DNA from: an uncultured marine group III euryarchaeote
Lineage (GTDB): Archaea; Thermoplasmatota; Poseidoniia; MGIII; CG-Epi1
Assembly: GCA_902531985.1 (NCBI GenBank)
Contig: CACAGG010000001.1
Coordinates: 2,505-66,504 of the forward strand
Length of the DNA stretch: 64,000 nt
Direction: 5' to 3'
Shown: piece by piece, positions 10,193-63,749 of the stretch
Layout of the letters: the number at the start of each line of letters is the position of its first letter
How positions within the stretch are numbered: position 1 is the stretch's first letter
Program-made: the position numbers and the translations under genes
The notes under the pieces: generated by a model
Database searches by the model: none
The model's input: the letters and a program-made list of their open reading frames with translations, nothing else
What the model was told of the DNA's origin: nothing

Positions 10193-12274
10193 GTGCACTG
10201 TCCAATTTGTAAAAACACCAGGCTAGAAAAAAAAACTACAACTACTGGTGTAGAACTTGACTCATGCAGAAGATGTGGCTCAGTTTTTCTTGAGAGAGGT
10301 GAAATTTTCCTTCAACTACCTTCAAAACAAATTTCTGTATTTGATAAAGCAATAGAAACTGCATTTAAGAATAAAGAAAAATCAGGATATCATTCTCCTA
10401 AAACTGGAAAGGAGATGTATAGCATTAATGAATTACCATCAGAATCGAACCAATTTTTCGTAGACAACGAACGAAATATTTTGGCTACTGAAAAGGGCAT
10501 AAACGAACTAAAAGAAAAATCTAGTTTCGGTTTAGATTGGGCTGAAGCGTCTGCACCTGCTACAAGATACATCAAGGCCTTACCAAATTTAGTCCTATCA
10601 TCTACTATCACCTTCGGCGCTCTATATGGATTGGTTGCCCTTGCGCTAATTACAATTTCCCTTGTATTCGAAGCTGATCAAAGCACTTCAGGAGAAGACG
10701 GGCTATTTGTCGGTGGAAGCTTACTAGCTATCTCTTTTGTAATTACTTTAATCGGATTTTTGCTTGGACCATTTATTATGGACCTGCAATTACGCTGGTT
10801 ATTCACAATAGAATGGTTAGAACCAAATCAACTACCAAAGGCGCTTGAAGTTTACTTAAAAGAGACCTCTACGAAACAAAATATCAACATTCCATACATG
10901 GGAGTTATCAATGACATGGCTCCTAACGCATTCACATATGGTCATACACCCAATAACGCACGCATAGTAATTACTAAAGGATTGTTTGAATTACTAGATG
11001 AAGACGAACTCAATAGTGTAGTAGGACATGAGATTGGTCATGCAGTTCATTGGGACATTTTGCTAATGAGTTTCGCACAAATGGTACCTGTATTCTTCTA
11101 TTACATTTACAGAGCCTGTATTGAAGCAGCTCATAAGGCTGGCAAAGCCGGTAAAGATGGAGCCAAAGCAGCACCACCGTTCATTATAGTAGCTATTGGC
11201 GCATACGTTGTATATATCATAGCTCAATATCTTGTTCTTTACTTCAGTAGAGTTAGAGAATACTATGCCGATAGATTCGGGGCTGAAAGTGTTGGCAGTG
11301 CTGCTGCACTATCCGGAGCGCTTGTCAAAATTGCATATGGTCTAGCCGGAAGAAGAGATGCTGAAAGTAGAAGTGATGATGAAAATAGATCAACGATAAA
11401 TTCCATTGGCGCACTAGGCATATCTAATGCAGAAAGTGGACAGATGCTAGCAGTCACAACTGGTAACAGTACCGATTATGAATGGGATGGTAAAAGCCAA
11501 TATGAGATTAATAAAAATAGCATAATGGGAGCTATGAAATGGGACCTCTGGAATCCATGGGCCACATTCTATGAATTAAATTCAACACACCCTTTGACTG
11601 CGAAAAGGCTATTGCACTTAAGTAGACAATCTGAAGAATTTGGTGAAGAGCCTTACATCTCATTTAACCTATCTAAGCCTGAATCATACTGGGACGAATT
11701 CATTCATGATGTAGTAATGATTCTTTTCCCTTGGTTAATGATAATTGGTTTCTTCGTAATTCCTACATATGATAATCCAATAATACCTCAAGAACACTGG
11801 CCTTCAACTGCGATTTTAATTTTTGGTATTGCTTACCTTTACAAATTATACTTCCGCTACCCTACATCGATTTATCCTAAAATGTCCGTAGAAACTTTAC
11901 TTCATCAAGTAAAGGTATCTGACATAAGACCTATCCCTTGTACAGTTAAAGGCATAGTTAGAGGGAAAGGTATACCTGGTTACATATTTTCTGATGATTT
12001 AGTCATGCAAGACGATACTGGAATTATATTCCTGGACCATAGGCAACCTCTTGCTATTTGGGAATGGATATGGGGGTGGTTGAGAGGTAATGAAATGATA
12101 GGTAAAGAAATTACCGTCCAAGGTTGGTACAGACGTTCACCAATGCCTTACATTGAAATAAATAATTTTACTGTCGAAGGGAAAAATAGAAGGTCCTACC
12201 TATGGATTTTTAGATATTTGACTGGGATTTTAATCACAATAATTGGAATAATAATGCTAGCTAGGTTAATCTAA
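10193..12274 (+). CDS. zinc-ribbon-fused M48-family (HtpX-like) membrane zinc metalloprotease with C-terminal extra domain
   Basis: GTG start. N-terminal CPICKN...CRRCGS zinc ribbon. HEIGHAVHW (HExxH) plus a downstream EYYADRFG Glu. ...NAFTYG... M48 motif. Multiple TM segments. C-terminal ~150 aa has an OB-like region (CTVKGIVRGKG...). Confidence 0.75.
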   Translation: MHCPICKNTRLEKKTTTTGVELDSCRRCGSVFLERGEIFLQLPSKQISVFDKAIETAFKNKEKSGYHSPKTGKEMYSINELPSESNQFFVDNERNILATEKGINELKEKSSFGLDWAEASAPATRYIKALPNLVLSSTITFGALYGLVALALITISLVFEADQSTSGEDGLFVGGSLLAISFVITLIGFLLGPFIMDLQLRWLFTIEWLEPNQLPKALEVYLKETSTKQNINIPYMGVINDMAPNAFTYGHTPNNARIVITKGLFELLDEDELNSVVGHEIGHAVHWDILLMSFAQMVPVFFYYIYRACIEAAHKAGKAGKDGAKAAPPFIIVAIGAYVVYIIAQYLVLYFSRVREYYADRFGAESVGSAAALSGALVKIAYGLAGRRDAESRSDDENRSTINSIGALGISNAESGQMLAVTTGNSTDYEWDGKSQYEINKNSIMGAMKWDLWNPWATFYELNSTHPLTAKRLLHLSRQSEEFGEEPYISFNLSKPESYWDEFIHDVVMILFPWLMIIGFFVIPTYDNPIIPQEHWPSTAILIFGIAYLYKLYFRYPTSIYPKMSVETLLHQVKVSDIRPIPCTVKGIVRGKGIPGYIFSDDLVMQDDTGIIFLDHRQPLAIWEWIWGWLRGNEMIGKEITVQGWYRRSPMPYIEINNFTVEGKNRRSYLWIFRYLTGILITIIGIIMLARLI

Positions 12275-13420: not shown

Positions 13421-14122
13421 ATGACTGTAATTAGCTGTACTAACTTATCGAAAAAATATGAAGAGGTTTTAGCCCTTAATTCAGTAGACATTAAAATAGA
13501 GCAAGGCGAGTTTTTCGGATTACTAGGCCCAAATGGTGCTGGAAAGACTACATTTCTAAAAATATTAACGGGACAAATCAAAGCAACCCAAGGGGAAGCT
13601 TCAATATTTGGGATGAAAATAGATCAGAATGTTCTGGATGTTAAACGAAAAATTGCTATTGTTCCTGAGCAGGAATCCCCGCCTAGCTTCCTAACACCAA
13701 GAGAAGTACTAGAGATGGTTACTTCTATACGTAAAACTGAAAAGCCTAGAATAGATTATTGGATTGAATTTTTTGAGCTTGAGGCAATGGAAGGAAGAGT
13801 TTGTAGAAACTTGTCTAGAGGACAGAAACAAAAAGTAATGCTAGCTGCAGCATTTATTTCTGAAGTTAAACTAATGTTTTTGGATGAACCTTTCATAAAT
13901 CTAGACCCTATTGTTCAGACTAAAGTTAGAGACTGGTTAGCTGAATATGTAAGAGAGGGAGGCACTGTTTTTCTAAACACACATTTATTAGAAAATGCAC
14001 AAAGGCTTTGTGATAGGGCTGCAATAATTCACAATGGAGAAATACAATCTTTAATAAAAATAAATGAGCTGGAAGAACAAGATATGAGTTTAGAAGAGCT
14101 TTTCCACGAAATAATACTATGA
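13421..14122 (+). CDS. ABC transporter ATP-binding protein
   Basis: Walker A GPNGAGKTT, ABC signature LSRGQKQK, Walker B LMFLDEP. Confidence 0.9.
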   Translation: MTVISCTNLSKKYEEVLALNSVDIKIEQGEFFGLLGPNGAGKTTFLKILTGQIKATQGEASIFGMKIDQNVLDVKRKIAIVPEQESPPSFLTPREVLEMVTSIRKTEKPRIDYWIEFFELEAMEGRVCRNLSRGQKQKVMLAAAFISEVKLMFLDEPFINLDPIVQTKVRDWLAEYVREGGTVFLNTHLLENAQRLCDRAAIIHNGEIQSLIKINELEEQDMSLEELFHEIIL

Positions 14123-15555
14123 ATCAATTAATTCTTTGGAGAATGCTACAAGAAGAAATACGTCTTAATACTAGTTTTGCAAGTGGAAAAGGTTTCTATT
14201 CTTTCCCGATACTAGTGGCGATTAGTGGAATCCTTGCTGTTACTTTTAGTAATCAAATGATTTCTGATATGGGGTATGTTGAATACCTTGAAGTCATGCA
14301 TATTGGACTCATGTTCTATGGTGTTTTTGCAGGCTCACTTGCTTTTTTTGGAAACGAGTTCCTAGAACGAATCTTTGGATATCTTGGACTGATAATAGGA
14401 CTGCCAACCACACAACCAATAACTCAAAGGAAAATGACACTACTATATTTCATTAAAGAATTTATCTTTTACTCCTTTTTTACGTTGATACCTGCTTTTT
14501 TGGGGGGCTTGATTGGGGCCTATCTAATGGAAATAAGTATGCTTAATCTAACAAAATTTGGAATTTCTCTCATCTTTTCATTTTTAATGGGACTATCTTT
14601 TGCTTATCTTATTTCTAGCTTTTACAGAATATCGTGGAAATTGAGCGTATTTGGAGGCTTACTTGCTATGATAATATATGCTATAGCTGTTAGAGATATC
14701 TCTATTACACATTCATTGGAATGGTATTTCAATGGAGAAATAAAATATCTTCTTTATTCACTTGTTACCACCATAATCCTAGCCACTGTTGCAACTTTAC
14801 TAGTTACAGACCAATATGAACAAGGGACTGTTAGAACCATAGGATACAAGGACAGATTGAAAGAATACATCGATAATTTTTCATGGGCCTCAAAATTATC
14901 TGAGCCAACTATCATTTCTAAAGAAAGAATAGATCTTCAAAGAAGTAAGACTGGCACAAAAATGTTTTTTTCATTTGCTTTCCCTCTAGGTATTTTAACC
15001 TTCATGAATTGGTTCATAGATAAGGGATTACCAATTCAGGTAGATTTTAACACCATATTTTATGGGGTAATGGTTGGCTTTTTTGGGACTATGATTTATT
15101 CATGGTTAAACACTATAGATAGTCCTACTTTCTATTCCACATTACCAGTTACTGTTTCTGACGTTATTAGAGCCAGACTTGTTTTATTCTTTACAATAAC
15201 TTGGTGGATACCATTACTATTTTTGACATTAATAGCATACATGAGTTCAGAAATTAATCTTCTACCTATTGGCATTATAGTTATGATTACAGTAGGCATG
15301 TATATTGTAAATTATACTGCATGGTCAACAGGCTTGAGGACAAATTCAGCTCTATTTGATGCAATTATTTTTCTCAAATTCTTTGTAATCTCGGTGCCAC
15401 CAATGATTGCTATGACTATCTTGAGTCTAGCAATTAGTTACAGCATTTCTACAGTTCTAATTGCACTCTCTATAATTTGCGGAGTTCTCGCACTGTGTAG
15501 TATCTTCTTTTACAATAGAATTGAAGTTAAATGGGAAAACGAAACATTCGATTAA
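14119..15555 (+). CDS. ABC transporter permease (ABC-2 type, multi-TM)
   Basis: 478 aa, highly hydrophobic. Translationally coupled to the upstream ABC ATPase. Confidence 0.7.
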   Translation: MNQLILWRMLQEEIRLNTSFASGKGFYSFPILVAISGILAVTFSNQMISDMGYVEYLEVMHIGLMFYGVFAGSLAFFGNEFLERIFGYLGLIIGLPTTQPITQRKMTLLYFIKEFIFYSFFTLIPAFLGGLIGAYLMEISMLNLTKFGISLIFSFLMGLSFAYLISSFYRISWKLSVFGGLLAMIIYAIAVRDISITHSLEWYFNGEIKYLLYSLVTTIILATVATLLVTDQYEQGTVRTIGYKDRLKEYIDNFSWASKLSEPTIISKERIDLQRSKTGTKMFFSFAFPLGILTFMNWFIDKGLPIQVDFNTIFYGVMVGFFGTMIYSWLNTIDSPTFYSTLPVTVSDVIRARLVLFFTITWWIPLLFLTLIAYMSSEINLLPIGIIVMITVGMYIVNYTAWSTGLRTNSALFDAIIFLKFFVISVPPMIAMTILSLAISYSISTVLIALSIICGVLALCSIFFYNRIEVKWENETFD

Positions 15556-37469: not shown

Positions 37470-40400
37470 TCAGAATAAACTTAAACTGTCTGAATTAGCC
37501 ATTCTATCCAATGTCTCAGTAACAAGAGAATCGGGTCCAAGAACTTCTTTAGCTTGAAGGAACATACACCTAATTTCATTTCTCTCAAGACCTTCTAACG
37601 AAGGCATAATATTTGATCTAATAACTCTGTCCAAAGCAAGCTCTGGCCCATATTTCTTAATCGAATTAAACATGGTAACCATAGAATCAATGACTAGGGC
37701 AGGACCTATCTTACGGAATGTACGAACTCCTACTGCTACTTCATCTCCTCTATTCGGTGCCTCGCTAGGCTCCAAGAATTTTACTAATTTCTCGTGACAC
37801 TTATACATGCTCCCATCATCGTCATAAAAGTCAAATTTACGACTTGGGAAATGACGGCACTTATCACCAAATTTCCAAAGATCATCACCTTCCGGCCTCT
37901 CAGGGACTAAACCTAACTTCTTTAATTTGAAATAAACAAATACAGGCATTCTGTTATATTCGTCTTCAGGAATTGGAAGTCCAATTTCGACAAAAGCAAA
38001 ACGCCTCATCAATGCGAAACCCACATTGAAAAGCGTATTTTTATCTTGAGTATTCATAGTTCCAATAATTCTGAACTCTGGTGGCATCATGAAAGGAGCT
38101 CCTCCCGTTTCTTTGTGAGTCAATAATGGTTGCTTATCCCTATATTCAAAAACTGTGAACAATTTACCAAAAGCTTCATCAATATTAGCACGATTAAATT
38201 CGTCAATTACCAAGTAATGTGGTTTACCTGTTTCAACAATTGACTTTTCACAAAGCTTAGCAGCTTCAGCTACATATCCATCTTTGAAATAATAACCACC
38301 AGAGTCATCAGGCGAAATGCCGCCAATAACATCAAAATTAGACCATTCTGCATTAGCCGTTACAATGGTGTAATTTGGGGCTTTGCTACCATTTGGTTGA
38401 TCAATTTCACCGCATAATTTTGTCAATAATATATTAGACAAAGCCGTCTTACCAGTACCAGGTTCCCCAAATAGCATTATATTCTTTCCAGATGTCAAAT
38501 GGGTTATAACTTCGTCAACTGTTTCAGGAGTTGTTGAATAGGCTTCTGCAATTTCATGGAAATCAACTTCATAATCTACCTGTATTGCAGGTCTAATTTT
38601 TACAGAATGATCGACACTATCCATCATTGTCTTCTCAACTAATTGTTGATCAGGAGTATGCTCAGTAGTATGTTTCAGTTCAATCTGGAACTCTTCTCCG
38701 TATTCCTGCATCAAAAATTCCATTGCCGAATCGACTGACCACTCAGGCATTGCCTTCTGTCCGCCTTCTACTGTAGGTGCAAAAGGATCTTCACGATTTG
38801 GCATTGCTCTATCTGCTGCCAAAGACATTTCTCTTAGTCTTTGTGAACCAAATTTATAAACTAACCAAAATCCAACTGCAGTCACTAAAGCAGACAAAAG
38901 GAGATTGAAGTTGGCATCACCATCCATCTCATCCATTTCAACCCCGCCTAAAGCAATTGGTAAAATGAAAGTTGCAAATAAAGAAAGAATTCCTACAGCA
39001 AATATAACAAAATAAGCAACGCCTATTGAACCTTGCTCACCTCTCCTTTTGTTGTAAAATGAATAGAGACCCACTGAAGATATACCTAAAGCCATCACAG
39101 TAAGAGTCAAATCATTTTGATCTAAACCAAATCCTGAACCTTCATTAGTTAGCATATTGTAGGCAAAAATCAAGTATTGAAGAACTAAACCTGAAATAAT
39201 CATAGTCATATATTTGGCCTCATCAAGATCATTTATTCTTGTACTAGATACTAACCAATTTCCAATACCGATGAAAAGGAAAGTCGCGGCTAGCAACATT
39301 ATTGTACTGTCCTGACCTGCGCTAAAATCAACAAATGTAACATTAATGTCTTTGTGAGGCGTATCTAACAATTGACAAGCCCCCCTGTCATCTTCCTCCT
39401 TATTAGAAAGATCTAAAAGGAACATCTGAAGTTCGGAAACATAATCATCATCATATTTTCCATTACCATTTGTATCTGTAAATGATTCAGGCTTATTGTA
39501 TTTTGAATCACCGTTACCGTCTTCCCATTCTTCCCCTTCTCCTTCATCCCAAAGTCCGTTTGAGGTCCCATTTTCATTAGGCAGATCCGTCCAATCTAAC
39601 CTACCATTATTTTCAGAACCATCCTCATCTGGAGGAACATCACCTTCGGAAGTATAATTCCCGTCTTTATCTATATCTACGGACTCTACACCGTCAAGGC
39701 CAAAATCATCAAATTCATCCCATACGTCCCGTAAGCCATTATTCTCGCCTTCATCATTAGTACCAACAATTCCATCAAATCCATAATCGTTTAGTGGTTC
39801 GAACGGTATTGGTTTACTGCCATATGGGTTTTCACAAACCGCATAAGGCCCTTGGGCATAATTTAAGAATACCGAAGAAAGTAAAAGCGCTATAACTATT
39901 ACAAAGAAATAAAAATTCAAAGTCACGGGTTCGTCTAAAGGCCTTTCCAGAGAAATACGTGCGAAAAGAACTGAAGTTGCAACTATCAGACATACTGTTG
40001 CAGCAAAACCTAAAGTAAGAGGTATTGCAAAAATTAGTTGATCCAAAAAACCTCCATAAACTACAAACAATAATATCTGACTAAATGCAAAAATTATCAA
40101 AGGCAGAGTAAGTGATGTATTTGGTATAGAATTGTAAAGATAAAAAGCGATAACCAAAAATAAACCATTTAAGGCAAATAGTGCAAGCCCAGTGCCAAAA
40201 GTAATGTTAACTGGACAACCATACCTTTCTTCATCATCAATGTATCCACTACGATTAGTATCTGTTATGTAATAATCATTAGTAGTAGTAAATGACTCCT
40301 GCAAATCTTCATTAAACACTGACTTCTGCTCCTCTTCTTTATATTCTACATATCTCTGCTTATCCCACATCTCACAATTAAACGGTTCACCACTAAATGG

Positions 40401-40946
40401 ATCTGAGGTAGGTGTAGCTTCAGAATCATAAGGCGGGCCATTTTGTGCGTAAATAGGTTCCCCGTCACCATTAACATCAAGTCCTCTTGGAACGGTCATT
40501 GCAGTTACTCCGAGAACACTGAAAAAGATTAAAATTGCAATAAAAAGAGCTACAAGAGGACCTACATAGGTTAATTTACCGTCACTTTTGAAGAACTTGT
40601 CAAGTGTAGATGTGATTTTTTCCGTAAACTTTCCAAGGTCTCCGATAAAAGACAGATACTTGCGAAAATCAAACCCACTCGAAGAGCCTGCTTCTACGGG
40701 GATTTCAGTTCCTGCCAATGCTTCTTCGATTTCCTTTTCTTCATCAGTCAATTCATTGGTTTCGCTTTGCTCTTCCTCAATTTCTTCAATTTTGTCCTCG
40801 ATAGGCGGAATTTCAGAAGCTGAAGCTTCTGTAGAGGTATCCTGGGCATCTACACCTGAAATTTCTAAGTCTGAACCACAAATGGCACATGCTAATTCAG
40901 CATCATTATCCTCCTCATATTGGCAGACTGGGCAGACCTTCATCAA
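37470..40946 (-). CDS. large polytopic membrane protein: N-terminal zinc ribbon, Asp-rich Ca-binding-like extracytoplasmic loops, C-terminal McrB-type AAA+ (AAA_5) NTPase domain
   Basis: 1158 aa. N-terminal CPVCQ...CAICGS, then an acidic linker and multiple TM blocks. Loops carry DVNGDGEP / DKDGNYTSEGD / DTNGNGKYDDD repeats. The C-terminus has Walker A LFGEPGTGKTA, Walker B + McrB signature LVIDEFNRANIDEAFGKLF, and ...IIGTMNT...ALMRRFAFVEI. Confidence 0.7.
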   Translation of the reverse strand: MMKVCPVCQYEEDNDAELACAICGSDLEISGVDAQDTSTEASASEIPPIEDKIEEIEEEQSETNELTDEEKEIEEALAGTEIPVEAGSSSGFDFRKYLSFIGDLGKFTEKITSTLDKFFKSDGKLTYVGPLVALFIAILIFFSVLGVTAMTVPRGLDVNGDGEPIYAQNGPPYDSEATPTSDPFSGEPFNCEMWDKQRYVEYKEEEQKSVFNEDLQESFTTTNDYYITDTNRSGYIDDEERYGCPVNITFGTGLALFALNGLFLVIAFYLYNSIPNTSLTLPLIIFAFSQILLFVVYGGFLDQLIFAIPLTLGFAATVCLIVATSVLFARISLERPLDEPVTLNFYFFVIVIALLLSSVFLNYAQGPYAVCENPYGSKPIPFEPLNDYGFDGIVGTNDEGENNGLRDVWDEFDDFGLDGVESVDIDKDGNYTSEGDVPPDEDGSENNGRLDWTDLPNENGTSNGLWDEGEGEEWEDGNGDSKYNKPESFTDTNGNGKYDDDYVSELQMFLLDLSNKEEDDRGACQLLDTPHKDINVTFVDFSAGQDSTIMLLAATFLFIGIGNWLVSSTRINDLDEAKYMTMIISGLVLQYLIFAYNMLTNEGSGFGLDQNDLTLTVMALGISSVGLYSFYNKRRGEQGSIGVAYFVIFAVGILSLFATFILPIALGGVEMDEMDGDANFNLLLSALVTAVGFWLVYKFGSQRLREMSLAADRAMPNREDPFAPTVEGGQKAMPEWSVDSAMEFLMQEYGEEFQIELKHTTEHTPDQQLVEKTMMDSVDHSVKIRPAIQVDYEVDFHEIAEAYSTTPETVDEVITHLTSGKNIMLFGEPGTGKTALSNILLTKLCGEIDQPNGSKAPNYTIVTANAEWSNFDVIGGISPDDSGGYYFKDGYVAEAAKLCEKSIVETGKPHYLVIDEFNRANIDEAFGKLFTVFEYRDKQPLLTHKETGGAPFMMPPEFRIIGTMNTQDKNTLFNVGFALMRRFAFVEIGLPIPEDEYNRMPVFVYFKLKKLGLVPERPEGDDLWKFGDKCRHFPSRKFDFYDDDGSMYKCHEKLVKFLEPSEAPNRGDEVAVGVRTFRKIGPALVIDSMVTMFNSIKKYGPELALDRVIRSNIMPSLEGLERNEIRCMFLQAKEVLGPDSLVTETLDRMANSDSLSLF

Positions 40947-41064
40947 TTGTTTACAGAATGATGGGTTAAAATGTTAACTGAAAAAAAAGAAACAGGCAAA
41001 ACAATAACTCTGAGAGGAGAAAAAAATAAACTTTAAATAGAACCTCAAACAAAAACCTATCCCT

Positions 41065-43452
41065 ATGAAAGAAGAACTGCAGCAGATTCAGGCAGTAGCC
41101 ATTGTGACATTTTTGTGCGTTCTAATTTCTATACATAGTACAGGAGAATACGGTGAGTGGTTTGAAATAAGTGGAACCAAACAAGATATAATTAACCCTG
41201 GCAATCCTGAAAACGGTACTGAAATAAAAACTTTTGAGTATAGTTATCACTCTGGCTATTATACACAATACGAAGACGGGCAAACTGATAAACAAAACTA
41301 TGATAGTGCAAATTGCGGTTCTTGTACTGAAAAATCCAGTGTACTTCAAAATGTTACTAGACTAGCATACGGTACGGCGATTTTAGCATTAGGTGTTGCT
41401 TACATGGCAAGAGATTCTATCAATCACTTACATAAAAAAAATCTAAGAAGATCTCTCAGCAATCTAAAATATTCTGCAATACTTGTTTTGATTTTAGGTC
41501 TTACAACAGGATCCATGTTTTACATGGGTTGGACTGAGGCACTCGTTAGAGATGAAGCTACTATTAATGGCGACTTAGGTGAGCAACAAGTTTTAGGATG
41601 TATTGGACAGCCGGGATTTTTGACATTTTACGGAGGCGATGCCTGCTTAGAGTATGTTAACTCTCTTGAGCAGGGTGAAGCTGATCTACTAAGTTCAAGA
41701 GTTAATCCCATTGAGTGGGGACCAGGCATAGGATTTTTCGTTGTAATATTAGGTTCTCTAATTACAGGGGGAGGTACGCTGTATATTTTGGGTAGTATCG
41801 ATGAAGAATGGCAAGCTATTCTAAAAAGACAAGACCTAATTGAAAGGCAACAAAAAATACAGGATGGAGAAATTGAAAAGAATAAAGATTTATTAGATGA
41901 ATTTGATGAAACTGAACAAAAATTAAAGGATGCTGAAAGAAGAATCGAAGAAGTAAGGACTAAAGCTGATGAAATTGACTATCAAGGAATTGACGACTTA
42001 GATCAAGAACTAGACAGACTTACTGCATTAAACCAAAGTGTTGAAACTCTTAACAATTCTTTAGACAGCAAATTAAAGACTGCTCGAATAGCTACATCTG
42101 AAGTTGAGAAAAGGGCTAGAATGGCTGAAAAAGAATTAAATGATGATTTAGCAGCAAAAACAAATTTGGAAAACGAAATTGAGGATTTGAGAGGTAAACA
42201 TGAGAATGATATGCGGCTTAGCGATAGAATGACTCGAGAAATTAGCTCACTAAGAAAGATGACTGAAGATGCTGATGAGAGAGCATTAAAGGCCGAAAAG
42301 AAACTCAAATTGGAAAAACCTGACACAATTAATGCATTAGAGTCATACGATTCTGTAAAAGCTTCTTACGACAAAACTGTTGACGAAAAAAATAATCTTG
42401 AAAAAGAAATAATGGAATATGAGCAACAAACATTAGAGGCAAATGAAAGGGAAAAAGCCGCAGATTCTGAACGCAAGGAAGCTGCACAAAGAAGAAAAGA
42501 CCTAGACAGGGAAGTGAAACTTATGGAGAAAAACAAAAAAAGAATTAACGACAAATTCACAACACTAACTACTGGATTGGAAAAAGCAAAAAAAGATTTA
42601 GCAGGCGCTCGAGAAAAGGCCGCCGTAACTCTGAGTGAACTTGATTTGGAAAGAGAGACTATTGTCGAATTGCAGCAAGAAACTGAAAAATTTAGAACAA
42701 AGGAAAGTGAAATTGTCGAACTTACAGATTCTTTAAAAGAATTACAAGGACAAGTTGGAAACCAGAAAGAAACTAACAGTGGAATTGAAAAAGAATTAAA
42801 GGAAGAGACTAACCGCAAAAAGAAGACTGAAAAAGAATTAAAATCATTAGAGAAAGCATCTGAACAAGTAAGTAAAGTCATGGAAAGTTTGAAGAAACAA
42901 TTTGATGCTGCAAAAGATGAACTGAATATCGCAATGGATGATCGAAATAAAGCTGAAAGATTGCTGGAAACTGAAAAAACTGAACACGAAAAATTGAAAG
43001 AAGATCTAGAGTTTTTACAAGGCGCTACAATAGGAAGTGAGGAAGAAACTGAACGTAAAATAAAAGCCATGGAAATAGAAACTCCTAAAGCCAAAGAAGA
43101 AACTAGAGAGATGAAAGAAGAAGCTGATAGCTTGGCTGAACAAAACCAAGATTTAGAAGCTAAAATCAAAGAAGCTCGATTGGGAACTATTGAAGAGGCT
43201 ACCTCTGAAAATCAAGAAACTGCTGAAGCAAGTTCTGAAGAAAGTATCGCAACAATAGGCTCGAGTATAATAGTCAAAAATTTAGCAAAAGAAACTGAAC
43301 ATAACTTCCAACTGGTAAATCCTGATCAAGCAGATCCTAAAACAGGTAAATTACCTTTAACTAATCCTATAGCAAAGGCACTAGAAGGAACTAAAGAAGG
43401 CGATGAAGTTAGTGTTGGACCAAATACTTTTAAGGTCATAAAATTAAATTAA
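41065..43452 (+). CDS. membrane-anchored long coiled-coil protein with GreA/GreB C-terminal (FKBP-like) domain
   Basis: 795 aa. N-terminal signal/TM plus ~4 TM. About 500 aa of E/K-rich heptad coiled coil. The C-terminal ...NFQLVNPDQADPKTGKLPLTNPIAKALEGTKEGDEVSVGPNTFKVIKL aligns to the E. coli GreA C-terminus (...[51 protein letters not shown]). Confidence 0.65.
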   Translation: MKEELQQIQAVAIVTFLCVLISIHSTGEYGEWFEISGTKQDIINPGNPENGTEIKTFEYSYHSGYYTQYEDGQTDKQNYDSANCGSCTEKSSVLQNVTRLAYGTAILALGVAYMARDSINHLHKKNLRRSLSNLKYSAILVLILGLTTGSMFYMGWTEALVRDEATINGDLGEQQVLGCIGQPGFLTFYGGDACLEYVNSLEQGEADLLSSRVNPIEWGPGIGFFVVILGSLITGGGTLYILGSIDEEWQAILKRQDLIERQQKIQDGEIEKNKDLLDEFDETEQKLKDAERRIEEVRTKADEIDYQGIDDLDQELDRLTALNQSVETLNNSLDSKLKTARIATSEVEKRARMAEKELNDDLAAKTNLENEIEDLRGKHENDMRLSDRMTREISSLRKMTEDADERALKAEKKLKLEKPDTINALESYDSVKASYDKTVDEKNNLEKEIMEYEQQTLEANEREKAADSERKEAAQRRKDLDREVKLMEKNKKRINDKFTTLTTGLEKAKKDLAGAREKAAVTLSELDLERETIVELQQETEKFRTKESEIVELTDSLKELQGQVGNQKETNSGIEKELKEETNRKKKTEKELKSLEKASEQVSKVMESLKKQFDAAKDELNIAMDDRNKAERLLETEKTEHEKLKEDLEFLQGATIGSEEETERKIKAMEIETPKAKEETREMKEEADSLAEQNQDLEAKIKEARLGTIEEATSENQETAEASSEESIATIGSSIIVKNLAKETEHNFQLVNPDQADPKTGKLPLTNPIAKALEGTKEGDEVSVGPNTFKVIKLN

Positions 43453-60152: not shown

Positions 60153-63100
60153 ATGGGGCCCAATCTAAAGATTATCACTTTCTTACTGGCGCTTACTGGG
60201 GTGATATTTTTTACTGAAAATTCAACTGCCGAAATGGATCCTTTTATAGACGATGTGTTGTACTCTAAAGAGGGTTCTGATACTAAAGTTTTAGTCCAGA
60301 GTGGAAGAGACAACGCTACCTTCTACAAATACTTAATTTTGGATGATTTTTCAGACGCTCCTGAGAATTGGGCATCTAAAAATTTTAATGATTCAAGTTG
60401 GTCCAATGGAGCTGCGCCGTTTGGTGATAGAAGATACAACAACGTAGATCCTAATGTAGACTGGGACACTTCAGGAAGCTCACCCTATAACAATGATATA
60501 ATATTAATAAGACACAAATTTCAATTAAATGGAATAGTAACTTCAGCTGAAATTGATGTAGCTTTTGCAAATTATTGCACTCCTTACCTAAATGGTAATT
60601 TGATATATGATGAAAGAGGAGGGAATTCACATGGTGCTGAATACTGGAATGATGATGGGACTGAAGGAATATCCTCTAGTTCTTTTGAACCGGGAGAAAA
60701 TGTTTTAGCTGTTTATGGAAGAGATTATGTATATGGTTCTGGAAATCAAAATAGACAATGGTTAGACCTTCAAATCACGGCCCAAGTTTTTGAATCTACT
60801 AATGAATCTATTATATTTGGTGACTCAGTAATTGTAGCAATAACTGGTGGAAACGAAGGGGATGAAAGTGTTGATGAATATTTCATTAATGTTACTTCGA
60901 ACAACAAAACAATTAAAACATTCTATTATGACGCTATACCTGCTTACGGTTATGGTTTATCATGGCTAGAATGGAAGCCTGAAATAATTGGCTTAAACCA
61001 ATTAACTGTAAATGTAACTTGTAACTGTAGCGATATCAATAATACAAATAATTTACAAGTATTAAATCTAACAACTGTAATTTATTCATTAGAGACTACA
61101 CATGATGAGGAATTGCTAATTGTCAATCAAAGCAGACTTTTTAACCGATTAATCCAAGTTAAAAATACTGGAAATATTACTGACAATGTTACACTATCTA
61201 TTGAAGACGAAACACTTGGAAATTGGAATGCACAATTTACTCCAAATAATTTCGAAATTGAAGCTGGTGAAACGAAAGACGTACTATTGACGGCAGTTGC
61301 CCCTGAATCTCTAGAAGATGGCTACTACAATTTAACATTTAGAACGCAAAGTCAATATAATTATGTGACTACAGCAACATTATTGCAAAGAGGCTCTTAT
61401 GGAGGCGTAGACTGGAAATGGATCAATTCAACTACCCATGAAGAACTATATGATAATATCAATTGGACGAAATTAAACTTCAATGATACTGATTGGAAAA
61501 ACGGCAGTACTCCTTTTGGAGACTCGGATGTTGATGGAATAGATTACAATACTTTCTGGGAAGGTGACAACTATGCTTATTTCCGTCACATTATTGATAT
61601 TCCAGACATTAATCTATACGAGGGAGGGTTCATGAGCGTAAATGTAGCAACAAATAATTACGGTGACTATTACATCAATGGAGCCTATGTTTTCGGAGAT
61701 ATGGATATAGGGGATGGGCATGGAGCTGAATATTGGAATGATGAGTTTCAAATTTACTTGAATTATCTTAACCAAGGCCCTAATATCATTGCAAGCGTTG
61801 TTTCTAATCCGCAAAACACACAGTGGTTTGATGAAGAAATACTAATTACTTTTCCACAAGCTAATCTTTGGAACTACAAAAGTGAAATCAGTAGTATACC
61901 TTTATATTTGGATTCAACTCCCCCTACTACTAGAGTAATAGGAGAAGGATTTTATCGTAATAGCTCTACATTTGAGGTTAAGTGGAAAAGTATTTCCAAC
62001 TATGATGATTTATCTGGATATTACATTTATTATTTAGAAAAGGATGGTGGAAATTTAGGCGAATGGACCCTATTAGGATTTTACACTAATGAATCTACTA
62101 ACTTTACAGGCCAAGGAAACTTAACCTATCGATTCAAATCAATAGCCATAGACAATAATGGAAATGTCGAGAACAAAGGAACATATGATACCGAGATGAG
62201 AGTTGATTTAATTACTCCAAAGTCTACATTATGGATTGTTGAAGGGAATATCGAATTTACAAATCTCGATGGAATTACTATCCAATGGAAAGCGAACAAC
62301 ACAATGGACATACAGGCGTATTTGATAGAATACAGAGATTCAAAAAATCAAACTTGGAAAGATTTTGGAGCATTTACTTCCACTGGAGAATATTGGTTTT
62401 CACCTGAAGAAGATGAGACTTTTGAAATTAGATCCCGCACAATAGATTATGCTGGCAATAAAGAAATTAAACTGGAAAGTGACATCATTGTCACGTTTGA
62501 TAGATTAAAACCAGAAGTAAAACTTAATTCTCTCAATCAATTAACTGGTTCTGATCAACTGATTATTAGCATTGAAAATAGAAGTGAAGGCTTGGATAAT
62601 ATTGAATTAGAGTATGCAAGACTTTTGGAAGATGTTGAGGATGTATTAGAATGGAGAGAAGTTGAATCTGAGTGGCAGAATGAGGAGATCTTGATGAGTC
62701 CTCTCATTGATGGATACACTTATTATTTTAGAATAAACCCCTCTGATTTGGCAGGTAATAAGTGCCCAAGAGAGCCTTACGAATATCAAGTATTTATCAG
62801 CTCCAATCAAACTGAAAAGCTGACTCTGCCAGTAATGCCACTAAAACCAATTATGATTGGGAAAATAAGAAACATAGAGATGTCTGCTGATGAAAATGGA
62901 GATGGTATTTTTGAAAAAACTCTTGAAGAATATACTGGTATTGATTTAAGAGCGATGAAAGCAAACCAGTACTGGGTAAATTATTTGACTGGTGAAATCA
63001 TTTTTGGTGATGGACAAGACGGATATATGCCACCTAATAATTCATCATTAAATCTAGCATTTAATGGATATGATTTGGTAACGACGGTTGATCTGAAACT

Positions 63101-63749
63101 TCCGGAACCTATTGAGCAAATCGAATACGTAATAGAAGATAGAAATAATGTGACTATTACGTGGAAAAAGCCTTTGGATGCAACCAGCTTTATAGTTGAA
63201 AGTAAAAAAAATTTTAGTATGCCTTGGATTTCTGTGACTACTATAGATATCAAAGACAATAATGAACCAAGCTACAAAGCTACAAATTTGAGTGATGGAT
63301 TCCATTATTATCGAGTGATTTCTGTGGATAGAATGGGCTATACTAATCCAAACATGATAAATGAACACATTAGAGTTATAATTGAAGCTGAAGTTAATAG
63401 TGTAATTGAGGCTGAACCAAAGCAAACTGAAGATTTGTATTTGTATGGTCTTGTCGGAGTGGTATTAGGTTCAATTGCAATATACGGCGCCTCACGATTA
63501 CTTAAAAGTGAAACTGATGTTGAAGTCGCAAGCAGACCTATGCTAATTCCAGTTGATAATACTTCAGAAGAGCAAACCACTATAACTGAAAGTGAGGTAC
63601 TAGAAACATTTAGTGTAGTGCCTGGAAGCCAATTTTCAAGACAATTAATGTATGTGTGTGAAAAAGGATGTATGAAGGAATTTGAAGTAGAAGGGGAAGA
63701 TGAGGAAGTTATGTGTCCTCATTGCGGAACAATAGGGGATTTAATTTAG
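60153..63749 (+). CDS. large surface (S-layer/adhesin-like) glycoprotein with signal peptide, internally duplicated beta-rich domains, C-terminal TM anchor and cytoplasmic zinc-ribbon tail
   Basis: 1198 aa. N-terminal MGPNLKIITFLLALTGVIFFTENSTA. Dozens of N-x-S/T sequons. A duplicated ~200-aa unit (..W.NG..PFGD...Y.NG......G..HGAEYWND.. at aa ~90-170 and ~445-525). TM LYLYGLVGVVLGSIAIYGASRLL. Tail C..C...18...CPHCG. Confidence 0.6.
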   Translation: MGPNLKIITFLLALTGVIFFTENSTAEMDPFIDDVLYSKEGSDTKVLVQSGRDNATFYKYLILDDFSDAPENWASKNFNDSSWSNGAAPFGDRRYNNVDPNVDWDTSGSSPYNNDIILIRHKFQLNGIVTSAEIDVAFANYCTPYLNGNLIYDERGGNSHGAEYWNDDGTEGISSSSFEPGENVLAVYGRDYVYGSGNQNRQWLDLQITAQVFESTNESIIFGDSVIVAITGGNEGDESVDEYFINVTSNNKTIKTFYYDAIPAYGYGLSWLEWKPEIIGLNQLTVNVTCNCSDINNTNNLQVLNLTTVIYSLETTHDEELLIVNQSRLFNRLIQVKNTGNITDNVTLSIEDETLGNWNAQFTPNNFEIEAGETKDVLLTAVAPESLEDGYYNLTFRTQSQYNYVTTATLLQRGSYGGVDWKWINSTTHEELYDNINWTKLNFNDTDWKNGSTPFGDSDVDGIDYNTFWEGDNYAYFRHIIDIPDINLYEGGFMSVNVATNNYGDYYINGAYVFGDMDIGDGHGAEYWNDEFQIYLNYLNQGPNIIASVVSNPQNTQWFDEEILITFPQANLWNYKSEISSIPLYLDSTPPTTRVIGEGFYRNSSTFEVKWKSISNYDDLSGYYIYYLEKDGGNLGEWTLLGFYTNESTNFTGQGNLTYRFKSIAIDNNGNVENKGTYDTEMRVDLITPKSTLWIVEGNIEFTNLDGITIQWKANNTMDIQAYLIEYRDSKNQTWKDFGAFTSTGEYWFSPEEDETFEIRSRTIDYAGNKEIKLESDIIVTFDRLKPEVKLNSLNQLTGSDQLIISIENRSEGLDNIELEYARLLEDVEDVLEWREVESEWQNEEILMSPLIDGYTYYFRINPSDLAGNKCPREPYEYQVFISSNQTEKLTLPVMPLKPIMIGKIRNIEMSADENGDGIFEKTLEEYTGIDLRAMKANQYWVNYLTGEIIFGDGQDGYMPPNNSSLNLAFNGYDLVTTVDLKLPEPIEQIEYVIEDRNNVTITWKKPLDATSFIVESKKNFSMPWISVTTIDIKDNNEPSYKATNLSDGFHYYRVISVDRMGYTNPNMINEHIRVIIEAEVNSVIEAEPKQTEDLYLYGLVGVVLGSIAIYGASRLLKSETDVEVASRPMLIPVDNTSEEQTTITESEVLETFSVVPGSQFSRQLMYVCEKGCMKEFEVEGEDEEVMCPHCGTIGDLI

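What the first reader, a model, noticed from the sequence alone, without database searches (positions are those of the whole stretch)
37470..40946. Membrane-embedded McrB-type AAA+ motor with zinc ribbon and Ca-binding-like Asp repeats, no McrC partner
The C-terminal ~350 aa carry Walker A LFGEPGTGKT, the McrB hallmark IDEFNRANIDEAFGKLF, and IIGTMNT...ALMRRFAFVEI. This is a McrB/AAA_5-type GTPase/ATPase motor. McrB homologs normally work with a PD-(D/E)xK McrC nuclease and carry soluble DNA-reader N-termini. Here the motor is fused to an 800-aa region with many TM helices, a cytoplasmic CPxC...CxxC zinc ribbon, and two extracytoplasmic loops with calcium-binding-type repeats (DxNGDG, DKDGN, DTNGNGKYDDD; thrombospondin type-3 / dockerin-like). 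No McrC-like gene flanks it. The only close neighbour is the divergent coiled-coil/GreA-C gene. I do not recognise a membrane-anchored McrB motor coupled to an extracellular Ca-binding module as a described system. It could be a membrane-associated defence or envelope-remodelling machine.
Basis: partly seen in the sequence, partly recalled or inferred. Interest (0 to 1): 0.75.

Follow-up and report, generated by a model that had tools for sequence, protein, structure and literature searches.

The report
Membrane-embedded McrB-type GTPase of MGIII archaea
This is a real, very strongly conserved gene of uncultured Marine Group III archaea. It fuses the GTP-driven motor of a bacterial restriction enzyme (McrB) to a ten-helix membrane domain, and instead of the usual nuclease it is always paired with a long membrane-anchored coiled-coil protein, so a defence motor appears to have been rebuilt into a membrane machine of unknown role.

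Summary
The C-terminal module is McrB-type, not MoxR or GvpN. It has Walker A and B motifs and the NxxD signature MNTQD, and it matches E. coli McrB structures at E 2.5e-19.

The N-terminal part has a four-cysteine zinc ribbon, ten TM helices and two outside loops. The large Asp-rich loop is a lineage-variable insertion of 55 to 304 aa with no TSP3 or dockerin profile match. One canonical EF-hand-like loop in loop 1 is invariant.

Relatives occur almost only in Marine Group III archaea. Those genomes carry two paralogues. B is always followed by an orphan protein X, which has an Ig-like domain, a helical region and a PD-(D/E)xK-like motif and is probably a McrC analogue. A, the window gene, never has X nearby. 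It always sits head-to-head with a clade-specific protein made of four TM helices, a 450-aa coiled coil and a GreA-like module.

The closest soluble relatives are EVE-McrB-like proteins that also have X, so the lineage descends from McrBC systems. The A motor is 91% identical across the clade, more conserved than Elp3 or a tRNA synthetase, and it lies in a housekeeping block. Its function is unknown.

Verdict: a new variant of a known kind, of moderate to high interest.

The parts
37470..40946 (-). Gene A: zinc ribbon, 10 TM helices and a McrB-family GTPase, 1158 aa (probable true start ATG at 40943)
   Evidence: ORF. Orthologues at 51-91% identity. Alignment A1.
40878..40934 (-). N-terminal cytoplasmic zinc ribbon, CPVC-x11-CAIC (aa 5-23)
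   Evidence: The four Cys are at least 90% conserved and are also present in paralogue B. Pfam gives only weak zinc-ribbon hits.
40500..40556 (-). TM1 (aa 131-149)
   Evidence: Hydropathy 2.8. AF2 helix 128-149.
40194..40499 (-). Outside loop 1 (aa 150-251), with conserved Cys191/Cys244 and the invariant EF-hand-like loop DTNRSGYIDDEE (aa 229-240, nt 40227-40262)
   Evidence: Invariant columns T228, D229, N231, G234, E240, R241, G243 and C244. Motif against shuffles p = 0.0035. EF-hand_5 E 0.006, below threshold.
39864..40193 (-). TM2-TM5 (aa 252-361)
39306..39863 (-). Outside loop 2 (aa 362-547): an Asp/Gly/Asn-rich insertion with DxDxDG-type loops, bracketed by invariant Cys371 and Cys524; variable between lineages
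   Evidence: Length classes 55, 72, 187 and 304 aa among orthologues. Motif enrichment p = 0.009. No Pfam match.
38859..39305 (-). TM6-TM10 (aa 548-696), the better conserved half of the membrane domain
   Evidence: Median 66% identity against 41% for ZnR-TM1-5. 31-38% identical to paralogue B.
38529..38858 (-). Conserved cytoplasmic linker before the AAA+ domain (aa 697-806)
   Evidence: Nearly invariant in A1. Part of the roughly 400-aa module that defines the subfamily.
37980..38528 (-). McrB-type AAA+ core (aa 807-989): Walker A GEPGTGKT, Walker B VIDEF, NxxD signature MNTQD, RR of ALMRRF
   Evidence: Pfam AAA_5 E 2.6e-19. NCBIfam McrB E 1.2e-18. PDB 6hz4 E. coli McrB E 2.5e-19, residue-level alignment.
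37473..37979 (-). C-terminal lid and extension (aa 990-1158), ending in the subfamily tail ...SLSLF
   Evidence: No Pfam hit. Conserved through Thermoplasmata, Planctomycetes and Chloroflexi relatives, which end LS[VIM]F[GST].
40947..41064 (.). 118-bp divergent promoter spacer with two invariant TATA-like boxes, one about 25-30 bp upstream of each start codon
   Evidence: Alignment A6 of 9 loci shows CTATTTAAAGTTT and CAGTTAACATTTTAAC invariant and the middle variable.
41065..43452 (+). Gene CC: 4 TM helices with Cys-bearing outside loops (aa 1-245), a 450-aa coiled coil with no insertions or deletions (aa 246-~700) and a GreA-like module (aa ~643-795; PF01272 at aa 728-787)
   Evidence: PF01272 45 bits against a cutoff of 26.9. 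GreA NCBIfam E 3.9e-10. 1GRJ E 2e-5. Present divergently next to A in every A locus with upstream sequence. No gaps in the coil.

Best explanation
Gene A encodes a McrB-family, NxxD-type GTPase that is built into the membrane. An N-terminal cytoplasmic zinc ribbon, ten TM helices and two outward-facing loops precede a cytoplasmic AAA+ module.

Shown:
- A belongs to a small McrB subfamily whose soluble members are EVE-domain proteins.
- Across that subfamily a conserved partner gene X lies directly downstream in several lineages (paralogue B, L064/L065, two Thermoplasmata loci), about 1.8 kb downstream in L006, and directly upstream in one Chloroflexi locus. X has an Ig-like domain, a helical region and a PD-(D/E)xK-like motif. 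This is a McrBC-type layout.
- In Marine Group III archaea the membrane-embedded form duplicated. Paralogue B kept X.
- Paralogue A, this gene, never has X nearby and is always head-to-head with the clade-specific CC protein (4 TM, 450-aa coiled coil, GreA-like module).

Inferred:
- Like McrB, the cytoplasmic modules form a hexameric GTP-hydrolysing ring. Here the ring is clamped under the membrane by about 60 TM helices.
- The ring's activity is gated by a partner that engages its pore or face. For A that partner is most likely the cytoplasmic part of CC, which would take the place McrC holds in McrBC.
- The pair has been taken over from mobile restriction into a fixed, core membrane-associated function. 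GTP-driven conformational work would couple the cell surface, with its Ca-binding, fast-evolving loops, to a cytoplasmic target.
For: - McrB identity: with motifs.
- Topology: plus conserved outside Cys pairs.
- Subfamily and ancestry: the profile search found 17,832 McrB-like hits, but only a handful share the whole 400-aa module. The NJ tree puts A and B as sisters inside a clade of EVE/tandem-AAA and other soluble forms. EVE is confirmed in P0126 and P0127.
- Linkage of X: X lies immediately downstream of B and of B-like genes in more than 35 loci and of two Thermoplasmata relatives. It lies 1.8 kb downstream in L006 and directly upstream in one Chloroflexi locus.
- X motif: E(alpha1)...P[DE](beta2)...[DE]xK(beta3), with a perfect RPDILL...LLLDAKY in the Chloroflexi homologue.
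- A-CC linkage: present in every A locus with upstream sequence, including deep-branching L032 and L034, where the CC TM region is only 26-29% identical. In L034 none of the window's downstream-side genes queried (TFB, M24 peptidase, Elp3, Asn-synthase-like, AhpC) is found in about 10 kb downstream of A. Insertions occur on the outer sides of both genes but never between them.
- Both promoters are conserved.
- A and CC have the same narrow phyletic range.
- Core-gene behaviour: the A C-module has 91% median identity, against Elp3 88, TyrRS-like 82 and M3 peptidase 79. The neighbourhood is housekeeping. No relatives were found on viral contigs.
Against: - No direct evidence shows that A and CC interact. 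The whole block is syntenic across the clade, so adjacency may be partly inherited.
- Loop lengths of A and CC do not co-vary.
- X could act in trans on A, or A and B could form mixed rings. 24 of 25 assemblies with A also have B.
- Hexamer formation, GTP specificity and pore engagement are extrapolated from McrB structures (PMC7680126) and were not tested.
- The full-length AF2 model was unusable (pLDDT 38.8).
- The X model did not retrieve McrC, and hhalign against E. coli McrC was negative. 'X is a McrC analogue' therefore rests on gene position, motif and secondary-structure order.
- Ancestry from restriction systems and hypervariable outside loops would also fit a defence role.
Confidence: 0.45

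Rival explanations
1. A is still a restriction or defence motor. It uses the X protein encoded next to paralogue B, in trans, as its McrC-like nuclease. It cleaves incoming viral or foreign nucleic acid at the inner face of the membrane, and the variable outside loops sense or resist virus attachment.
For: - The closest soluble relatives have the classical EVE-McrB-plus-partner layout.
- X carries a PD-(D/E)xK-like motif, and most MGIII copies keep ExK.
- B and X co-occur with A in 24 of 25 assemblies.
- The outside loops evolve fast and are rich in insertions and deletions.
Against: - A is never adjacent to X.
- The catalytic Lys of X is replaced by D, I, Q or R in several lineages.
- A has no nucleic-acid reader domain.
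- The motor is more conserved than core housekeeping enzymes, and the locus is a syntenic housekeeping block, not a defence island.
- Nothing related was found on viral contigs, and there is no PADLOC system hit.
Confidence: 0.22
2. A and B are subunits of one machine. They form mixed A/B hexamers at the membrane, with X and CC as two accessory factors of the same complex.
For: - A and B are sister paralogues with the same ZnR-10TM-GTPase layout and 61-65% identical motor modules that share long identical stretches.
- They almost always co-occur.
- Soluble relatives carry two AAA+ modules in one chain, one of them degenerate, which hints at paired modules in the ancestral assembly.
Against: - Twelve assemblies show B without A in the same scan.
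- Both A and B keep intact catalytic motifs.
- The two genes lie in separate loci with separate partners.
Confidence: 0.15
3. A acts alone as a membrane protein quality-control or envelope-remodelling AAA+ enzyme, analogous to FtsH. The adjacency to CC has no functional meaning.
For: - Membrane-anchored AAA+ rings with housekeeping roles exist; FtsH is an example (established knowledge).
- A shows core-gene conservation.
- The whole block is syntenic.
Against: - There is no protease or other effector domain in A.
- McrB-type rings are not known to unfold substrates.
- The A-CC junction stays invariant, with two conserved promoters, while the outer flanks change.
Confidence: 0.1

Closest known systems
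McrBC type IV restriction enzyme (E. coli EcoKMcrBC; Thermococcus gammatolerans McrBC; PDB 6hz4, 6ut3-6ut8)
   Same: The AAA+ core shares Walker A and B, the NxxD signature (MNTADRS versus MNTQDKN) and the RR motif, with E 2.5e-19 to E. coli McrB. Relatives of the subfamily have the McrB-then-partner operon order and EVE reader domains.
   Different: There is no N-terminal DNA reader. A has a zinc ribbon and 10 TM helices instead. No McrC gene lies next to A. The score is far below the McrB equivalog cutoff (67 versus 637 bits). A has an extra conserved linker and a 170-aa C-terminal extension with an LSxF tail. It is a fixed core gene rather than a mobile defence gene.
CoCoNuT / CoCoPALM systems (Bell et al., eLife 2024, PMC11090510)
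   Same: These are McrB-like GTPases associated with long coiled-coil proteins. In CoCoPALM the GTPase is fused to an FtsB-like TM plus coiled-coil segment, which is a precedent for membrane-anchored McrB. Ig-like and inactivated PD-(D/E)xK domains occur in their McrC homologues.
   Different: Those GTPases carry the NxD motif, whereas A has NxxD. They keep a McrC homologue in the operon. They are bacterial and nearly absent from archaea. None is described with a 10-TM domain or a Gre-like partner.
EVE-domain McrB fusions (modification-dependent restriction)
   Same: The nearest soluble relatives, P0126 and P0127, carry an EVE domain upstream of the same motor module and have partner X nearby: directly downstream of P0126 (L067) and about 1.8 kb downstream of P0127 (L006).
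   Different: A has lost the EVE domain, the TPR repeats and the degenerate first AAA+ module, and it is membrane-embedded.
GreA/GreB transcript-cleavage factors and Gfh1 (for the partner gene)
   Same: The last ~150 aa of CC align to almost the whole of GreA. PF01272 scores 45 bits and 1GRJ residues 13-141 match. The SPIAxAL-like motif TNPIAKALEG is conserved.
   Different: CC is a 795-aa archaeal membrane protein with a 450-aa coiled coil. The positions equivalent to the catalytic acidic tip (D41/E44) are not conserved. To my knowledge archaea use TFS, not Gre factors.
FtsH-type membrane-anchored AAA+ rings (analogy only)
   Same: Both would be a hexameric AAA+ ring held at the cytoplasmic face of the membrane by N-terminal TM helices, encoded by a core gene.
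   Different: It belongs to a different AAA+ clade, has 2 TM helices rather than 10, and has a protease domain that A lacks. No homology is claimed.

Membership tests
McrB-family GTPase (AAA+, AAA_5 clade) | AAA_5-type AAA+ domain | tested here: met
   PF07728, E 2.6e-19, 70 bits against a cutoff of 22, aa 822-983.
McrB-family GTPase (AAA+, AAA_5 clade) | Walker A, Walker B and the Nx(x)D signature required for GTP hydrolysis (PMC11090510) | tested here: met
   GEPGTGKT, VIDEFNRAN and MNTQD are aligned residue by residue to E. coli McrB GPPGVGKT, IIDEINRAN and MNTADRS. They are invariant in A1.
McrB-family GTPase (AAA+, AAA_5 clade) | Closer to McrB than to MoxR, CbbQ or GvpN | tested here: met
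   NCBIfam McrB 67.1 bits (E 1.2e-18) against GvpN 17.7 bits (E 0.002), with no MoxR or CbbQ hit. All PDB sequence hits are McrB.
McrB-family GTPase (AAA+, AAA_5 clade) | Orthology to EcoKMcrB (NCBIfam equivalog cutoff) | tested here: not met
   67 bits against a cutoff of 637. Only the core, residues 180-356 of 459, aligns.
McrBC system | Adjacent McrC (DUF2357 plus PD-(D/E)xK nuclease), usually directly downstream | tested here: not met
   No such gene lies in the window or within 10 kb in any A locus. Paralogue B does have a downstream candidate, X.
McrBC system | N-terminal nucleic-acid reader domain on McrB | tested here: not met
   aa 1-700 are a zinc ribbon, an acidic linker and 10 TM helices. 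There are no reader-domain hits.
McrBC system | GTP-specific hexamer stimulated by a partner inserted in the pore | not testable with these tools
   This needs biochemistry or complex prediction. The single-chain AF2 model was poor.
McrC (for protein X next to paralogue B) | DUF2357 or McrBC Pfam match, or fold match to solved McrC | tested here: inconclusive
   - No Pfam, NCBIfam, PADLOC or PDB sequence hit.
- hhalign against E. coli McrC was negative.
- In favour: gene position, the alpha-beta-beta-beta-alpha-beta order with E...P[DE]...[DE]xK, and a weak PDDEXK_7 hit at E 0.018 in the Chloroflexi homologue.
CoCoNuT / CoCoPALM | NxD variant of the GTPase signature | tested here: not met
   A has NxxD (N965-T-Q-D968). 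The definition comes from PMC11090510.
CoCoNuT / CoCoPALM | McrC homologue and coiled coils fused within the operon | tested here: not met
   There is no McrC. The coiled coil is in a separate, divergently transcribed gene.
MoxR / GvpN / CbbQ AAA+ ATPases | Profile match at family level | tested here: not met
   GvpN scores 17.7 bits against a cutoff of 266.8. There is no AAA_3 or CbbQ hit.
Thrombospondin type-3 / dockerin Ca-binding repeats | Pfam TSP_3 or Dockerin_1 match | tested here: not met
   Loop 2 (aa 362-547) matches no family even at E <= 5.
EF-hand Ca-binding loop | 12-residue DxDxDG-type loop with Gly6, hydrophobic residue 8 and Glu12 | tested here: inconclusive
   DTNRSGYIDDEE (229-240) fits the pattern and is invariant. 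However, EF-hand_5 scores 16.5 bits, below its cutoff of 25.9, and no flanking helices could be tested.
Gre factor (partner gene CC) | GreA_GreB C-terminal domain | tested here: met
   PF01272 scores 45.2 bits against a cutoff of 26.9, aa 728-787.
Gre factor (partner gene CC) | About 160-aa soluble protein with conserved acidic residues at the coiled-coil tip | tested here: not met
   CC is a 795-aa membrane protein. The positions aligned to GreA D41 and E44 vary among homologues. It scores below all GreA equivalog cutoffs.

The most novel reading that the evidence does not exclude
A McrBC restriction module has been domesticated in Marine Group III archaea into a permanent, membrane-embedded GTP-driven machine. 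Its output is not DNA cleavage. Instead it controls a membrane-tethered, ruler-length coiled-coil protein that ends in a Gre-like module. Together with A's TFB-like zinc ribbon, that module could dock RNA polymerase at the membrane. This would be the first Gre-type factor at work in an archaeon, and it would link events at the cell surface directly to transcription.
Probability: 0.08. Interest if true: 0.9.

Novelty: new variant of a known kind. Interest (0 to 1): 0.62.

Why it matters
McrB motors are known only as soluble partners of McrC nucleases in mobile restriction systems. Here the same motor is welded to a ten-helix membrane domain. It is duplicated and fixed as a pair of core genes across an abundant, uncultured order of marine archaea.

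One copy has swapped the nuclease gene for a coiled-coil/Gre-like membrane protein. In relatives the nuclease's catalytic lysine is eroding. This is a concrete, testable case of a defence motor being taken over for a cellular, membrane-linked role.

It also defines three uncharacterised families: the membrane domain of A and B, the orphan partner X, and the archaeal Gre-like coiled-coil protein. It gives MGIII biology two lineage-specific membrane complexes to study.

Tried and rejected
1. Full-length AF2 model of A (21-sequence alignment): pLDDT 38.8. It was usable only for helix positions.
3. Sequence and profile searches of X found nothing: Pfam, NCBIfam, PADLOC, PHROGs, PDB, and hhalign against E. 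coli McrC.
4. X was looked for in the window and in all A loci by tblastn. It is absent.
5. Co-variation of the lengths of A's outside loops with CC's outside loops was tested as a sign of contact. There is none.
6. TSP3 or dockerin identity of loop 2 is rejected.
7. MoxR, GvpN or CbbQ placement is rejected.
8. Membership of CoCoNuT or CoCoPALM is rejected on the NxD criterion.
9. Viral or mobile association: no relatives on IMG/VR contigs.
10. A possible CxH...CH metal site at aa 1030-1051 is not conserved in P0029, so it was dropped.
11. Literature searches for membrane-embedded McrB or archaeal Gre-like membrane proteins found no prior description.

Full report
**1. What is at the coordinates**

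Window 37470..40946 (-) is a single ORF of 1158 aa. All homologues begin MKVCPVC, so the real start is most likely the ATG at 40943, one codon inside the TTG that the ORF finder reported.

The surrounding 64 kb is ordinary archaeal housekeeping DNA. It encodes Elp3, TFB, the thermosome, FttA/aCPSF1, adenylosuccinate synthetase, tRNA synthetases, pyruvate dehydrogenase E1 and a NADH dehydrogenase subunit. GC is an even 33-40%.

**2. The motor is McrB-type**

- Pfam gives AAA_5 (E 2.6e-19).
- NCBIfam gives McrB at 67 bits (E 1.2e-18) against GvpN at 17.7 bits, with no MoxR or CbbQ hit.
- All sequence matches among solved structures are McrB: E. coli 6hz4 at E 2.5e-19, and T. gammatolerans 6ut3.
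- The residue-level alignment pairs GEPGTGKT with GPPGVGKT, VIDEFNRAN with IIDEINRAN, MNTQDKN with MNTADRS, and ALMRRF with ALRRRF.
- The signature is therefore the NxxD type, which the McrBC census paper treats as diagnostic of conventional McrB GTPases (PMC11090510).
- The score is far below the McrB equivalog cutoff of 637 bits. This is a McrB-family protein, not an orthologue of EcoKMcrB.

**3. The membrane part**

Hydropathy finds ten TM segments. They coincide with the ten long helices of an otherwise unusable AF2 model (pLDDT 38.8).

An even number of helices puts both the zinc ribbon and the GTPase in the cytoplasm. All Lys and Arg of the short loops then fall on the inside. The two long loops (150-251 and 362-547) fall outside, and each carries a conserved cysteine pair (C191/C244, C371/C524).

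Loop 1 contains DTNRSGYIDDEE (229-240). This fits the canonical 12-residue Ca-binding loop, is invariant in the family and is unlikely from composition alone (p = 0.0035). The Pfam EF-hand score is nevertheless below threshold.

Loop 2 holds three more relaxed DxDxDG-type loops (p = 0.009). It matches no Pfam family, so the 'thrombospondin type-3 / dockerin' label is not supported.

Loop 2 is also a lineage-variable insertion. It is 55 aa in about half of the orthologues, 72 aa in some, 187 aa in the window's clade and 304 aa in another. It is an accessory decoration, not a defining module.

**4. Who has it**

Word-based and exhaustive profile searches and a scan of one genome per GTDB species agree that full-length relatives are rare. 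Only 87 loci were confirmed in 185,579 species genomes.

Nearly all are labelled Marine Group III, Poseidoniia or 'Methanobacteriota archaeon'. The closest are MGIII single-cell genomes AH-321-L02 and AG-343-N02, 97% identical in the motor module, with neighbouring genes 72-99% identical. The window therefore comes from an MGIII archaeon.

No relative was found on IMG/VR viral contigs. PADLOC recognises no defence system.

**5. Two paralogues and a hidden partner**

The GTDB scan separates type A from type B.

- Type A has 86-97% identity to the window's motor module, or 66-69% in three deep-branching lineages.
- Type B has 55-67% identity.
- B has the same zinc ribbon plus 10-TM plus GTPase layout, with short loops.
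- By my count from the table, 24 of the 25 assemblies with A also contain B on another contig. Twelve assemblies show only B.
- An NJ tree places A and B as sisters.

B is always followed by a roughly 690-aa gene, which I call X. The gap is 0-8 bp or the stop codon overlaps.

X homologues also accompany more distant relatives of the motor:

- directly downstream of L064/L065 and of two Thermoplasmata genes;
- 1.8 kb downstream in another archaeal locus (L006);
- directly upstream of one Chloroflexi homologue.

X has no match in Pfam, NCBIfam, PADLOC, PHROGs or PDB sequences. hhalign against E. coli McrC is also negative.

A modest AF2 model of X (pLDDT 58) shows three parts:

- an N-terminal Ig-like beta-sandwich, confirmed by Foldseek;
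- a long helical region;
- a C-terminal alpha-beta-beta-beta-alpha-beta unit.

The invariant or near-invariant residues of the C-terminal unit fall as E (alpha1) ... P-[D/E] (beta2) ... [D/E]-x-K (beta3). The Chloroflexi homologue reads RPDILL...LLLDAKY and gives a weak PDDEXK_7 hit (E 0.018).

X is therefore most simply a McrC analogue with a restriction-endonuclease-like domain. The fold test was inconclusive. The 'catalytic' Lys is replaced by D, I, Q or R in several lineages, which suggests that cleavage is not universally required.

**6. Ancestry**

The closest soluble relatives are P0126, P0127 and P0129 from Thermoplasmata-type contigs. Their order is TPR repeats, an EVE domain (37 and 25.5 bits in P0126 and P0127, both above cutoff), a degenerate AAA+ module and an active module of the same subfamily, with X nearby.

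EVE-McrB fusions with a downstream partner are the classical layout of modification-dependent McrBC systems (PMC11090510). The membrane-embedded MGIII proteins therefore descend from a McrBC-type system.

**7. What sits next to the window gene**

No X lies in the window or in any type-A locus. So 'no McrC partner' is true locally, although the same genomes very probably encode B and X elsewhere.

Instead, A is head-to-head with a 795-aa gene (41065..43452) across a spacer of about 120 bp. This holds in every type-A locus that has upstream sequence, including the deep-branching L032 and L034, where the partner's TM region is only 26-29% identical.

- Insertions occur on the outer side of either gene: a 2OG oxygenase in L003 and a cupin in L004. 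In L034 none of the window's downstream-side genes queried is found in about 10 kb downstream of A. No insertion ever lies between the pair.
- The spacer carries two invariant TATA-like boxes, one for each gene.
- The partner (CC) has four TM helices with Cys-bearing outside loops and a 450-aa coiled coil. That coil shows no insertion or deletion among homologues at 62-93% identity and is 77% identical across the clade.
- The C-terminal ~150 aa align to almost all of GreA: PF01272 at 45 bits, GreA NCBIfam at E 3.9e-10, 1GRJ at E 2e-5.
- The positions aligned to GreA's catalytic acidic tip are not conserved.
- CC has the same narrow phyletic range as A.

**8. Conservation**

Median identity to the window across 22 type-A loci:

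| Region or protein | Median identity |
|---|---|
| TFB | 97% |
| A motor module | 91% |
| Elp3 | 88% |
| TyrRS-like | 82% |
| M3 peptidase | 79% |
| M24 peptidase | 76% |
| A, TM6-10 | 66% |
| A, zinc ribbon to TM5 | 41% |

This is the profile of a core gene with a strongly constrained cytoplasmic engine and a fast-evolving surface. It is not the profile of a patchy defence gene.

**9. How it most likely works**

Shown: A is a membrane-embedded McrB-family GTPase with catalytic motifs intact. It is a sister paralogue of a gene that keeps a McrC-position partner. It is invariably paired with the CC/Gre-like membrane protein, and it behaves as a core gene.

Inferred from McrB structures (PMC7680126): the cytoplasmic modules assemble into a hexameric ring, here pinned under the membrane. 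Its GTPase cycle is set by a partner that engages the ring.

My best guess (confidence 0.45) has two parts. For A that partner is the cytoplasmic part of CC, replacing McrC. The pair has been taken over from restriction into a fixed membrane-associated function that couples the cell surface to a cytoplasmic target.

Rivals:
- A still acts in defence, using X in trans (0.22).
- A and B form one mixed machine with X and CC as accessories (0.15).
- A acts alone and the adjacency has no meaning (0.10).

None can be excluded with the tools at hand. Complex prediction, a presence/absence matrix from complete genomes, and simple biochemistry would decide.

**10. Novelty**

I found no description of a polytopic-membrane McrB, of X, or of an archaeal membrane-anchored Gre-like coiled-coil protein.

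The nearest precedent is the CoCoPALM group, in which an NxD-type McrB is fused to an FtsB-like single TM plus coiled coil and keeps McrC. A fails that family's NxD criterion.

I rate this a new variant of a known kind. The finding is real and well delimited, and it is moderately to highly interesting as a case of a defence motor taken over for another role. Its function is unresolved.

Noticed in passing
window 41065-43452 (+): The coiled-coil/Gre-like neighbour has a 450-aa coiled coil with no insertion or deletion among homologues at 62-93% identity. The coil also contains blocks of exact sequence conservation, such as ENDMRLSDRMTREI and ALESYDSVKA. Total length stays within 787-818 aa. This is ruler-like behaviour, and a GreA-type module in an archaeon is unusual in itself.
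   Followed up: partly
L008 7216-12079; L005 6972-11695; L035-L066, L073, L074: Paralogue B (zinc ribbon, 10 TM, McrB-like; 876-927 aa) is translationally coupled to the orphan protein X (about 690 aa; Ig-like domain, helical region, PD-(D/E)xK-like motif, acidic tail). Where the flanks were annotated (L005 and L008) the pair lies between tRNA-intron endonuclease and GAPDH genes. It occurs in the same genomes as the window gene.
   Followed up: partly
X family alignment A4 (L006, L067, L075, L087, L064, P0272-P0387): The lysine of the [D/E]xK motif of X is K in most MGIII copies and in the Chloroflexi homologue. It is D, I, D, Q and R in other lineages, which suggests repeated loss of nuclease activity.
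   Followed up: partly
window 37473-37490 (C-terminus of A) and relatives P0124-P0133: The whole subfamily, archaeal and bacterial, ends in a conserved hydrophobic tail LS[VLIM]F followed by G, S, T or nothing. It resembles a docking tail. E. coli McrB lacks it.
   Followed up: no
L067 7823-12787; L006 8001-14863: Thermoplasmata relatives have TPR repeats, an EVE domain, a degenerate AAA+ module (Walker A ending GKE or GKM, Walker B lost) and an active McrB-like module, with X nearby. This tandem-module McrB layout may itself be undescribed.
   Followed up: partly
window 40947-41064: The divergent spacer has two invariant TATA-like elements, CTATTTAAAGTTT and CAGTTAACATTTTAAC, each about 25-30 bp from a start codon, flanking a variable T-rich centre. 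This implies short-leader or leaderless divergent transcripts.
   Followed up: yes
window 40588-40977 (+), 42003-42326 (-), 42366-43169 (-): ORFs of 107-267 aa lie antisense to genes A and CC. They have Ser/Leu-rich low-complexity translations and are almost certainly shadows of the acidic and coiled-coil coding regions, not genes.
   Followed up: no
window 14119-15555 (+) and 60153-63749 (+): A 478-aa ORF has no Pfam match, and a 1198-aa ORF has only a sub-threshold fn3 hit. Both are uncharacterised.
   Followed up: no
window 10193-12274 (+): This is an M48-family peptidase of 693 aa with an N-terminal TFIIB-type zinc ribbon. It is a second membrane-associated protein in the window that begins with a cytoplasmic zinc ribbon.
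   Followed up: no
L076-L089 (Chloroflexi), L071 (Planctomycetales): Bacterial members of the same motor subfamily (about 845 aa, with an unrelated soluble N-terminal region, or DUF4340 fusions) mostly stand alone without X. Only L087 has an X-like gene, directly upstream.
   Followed up: partly
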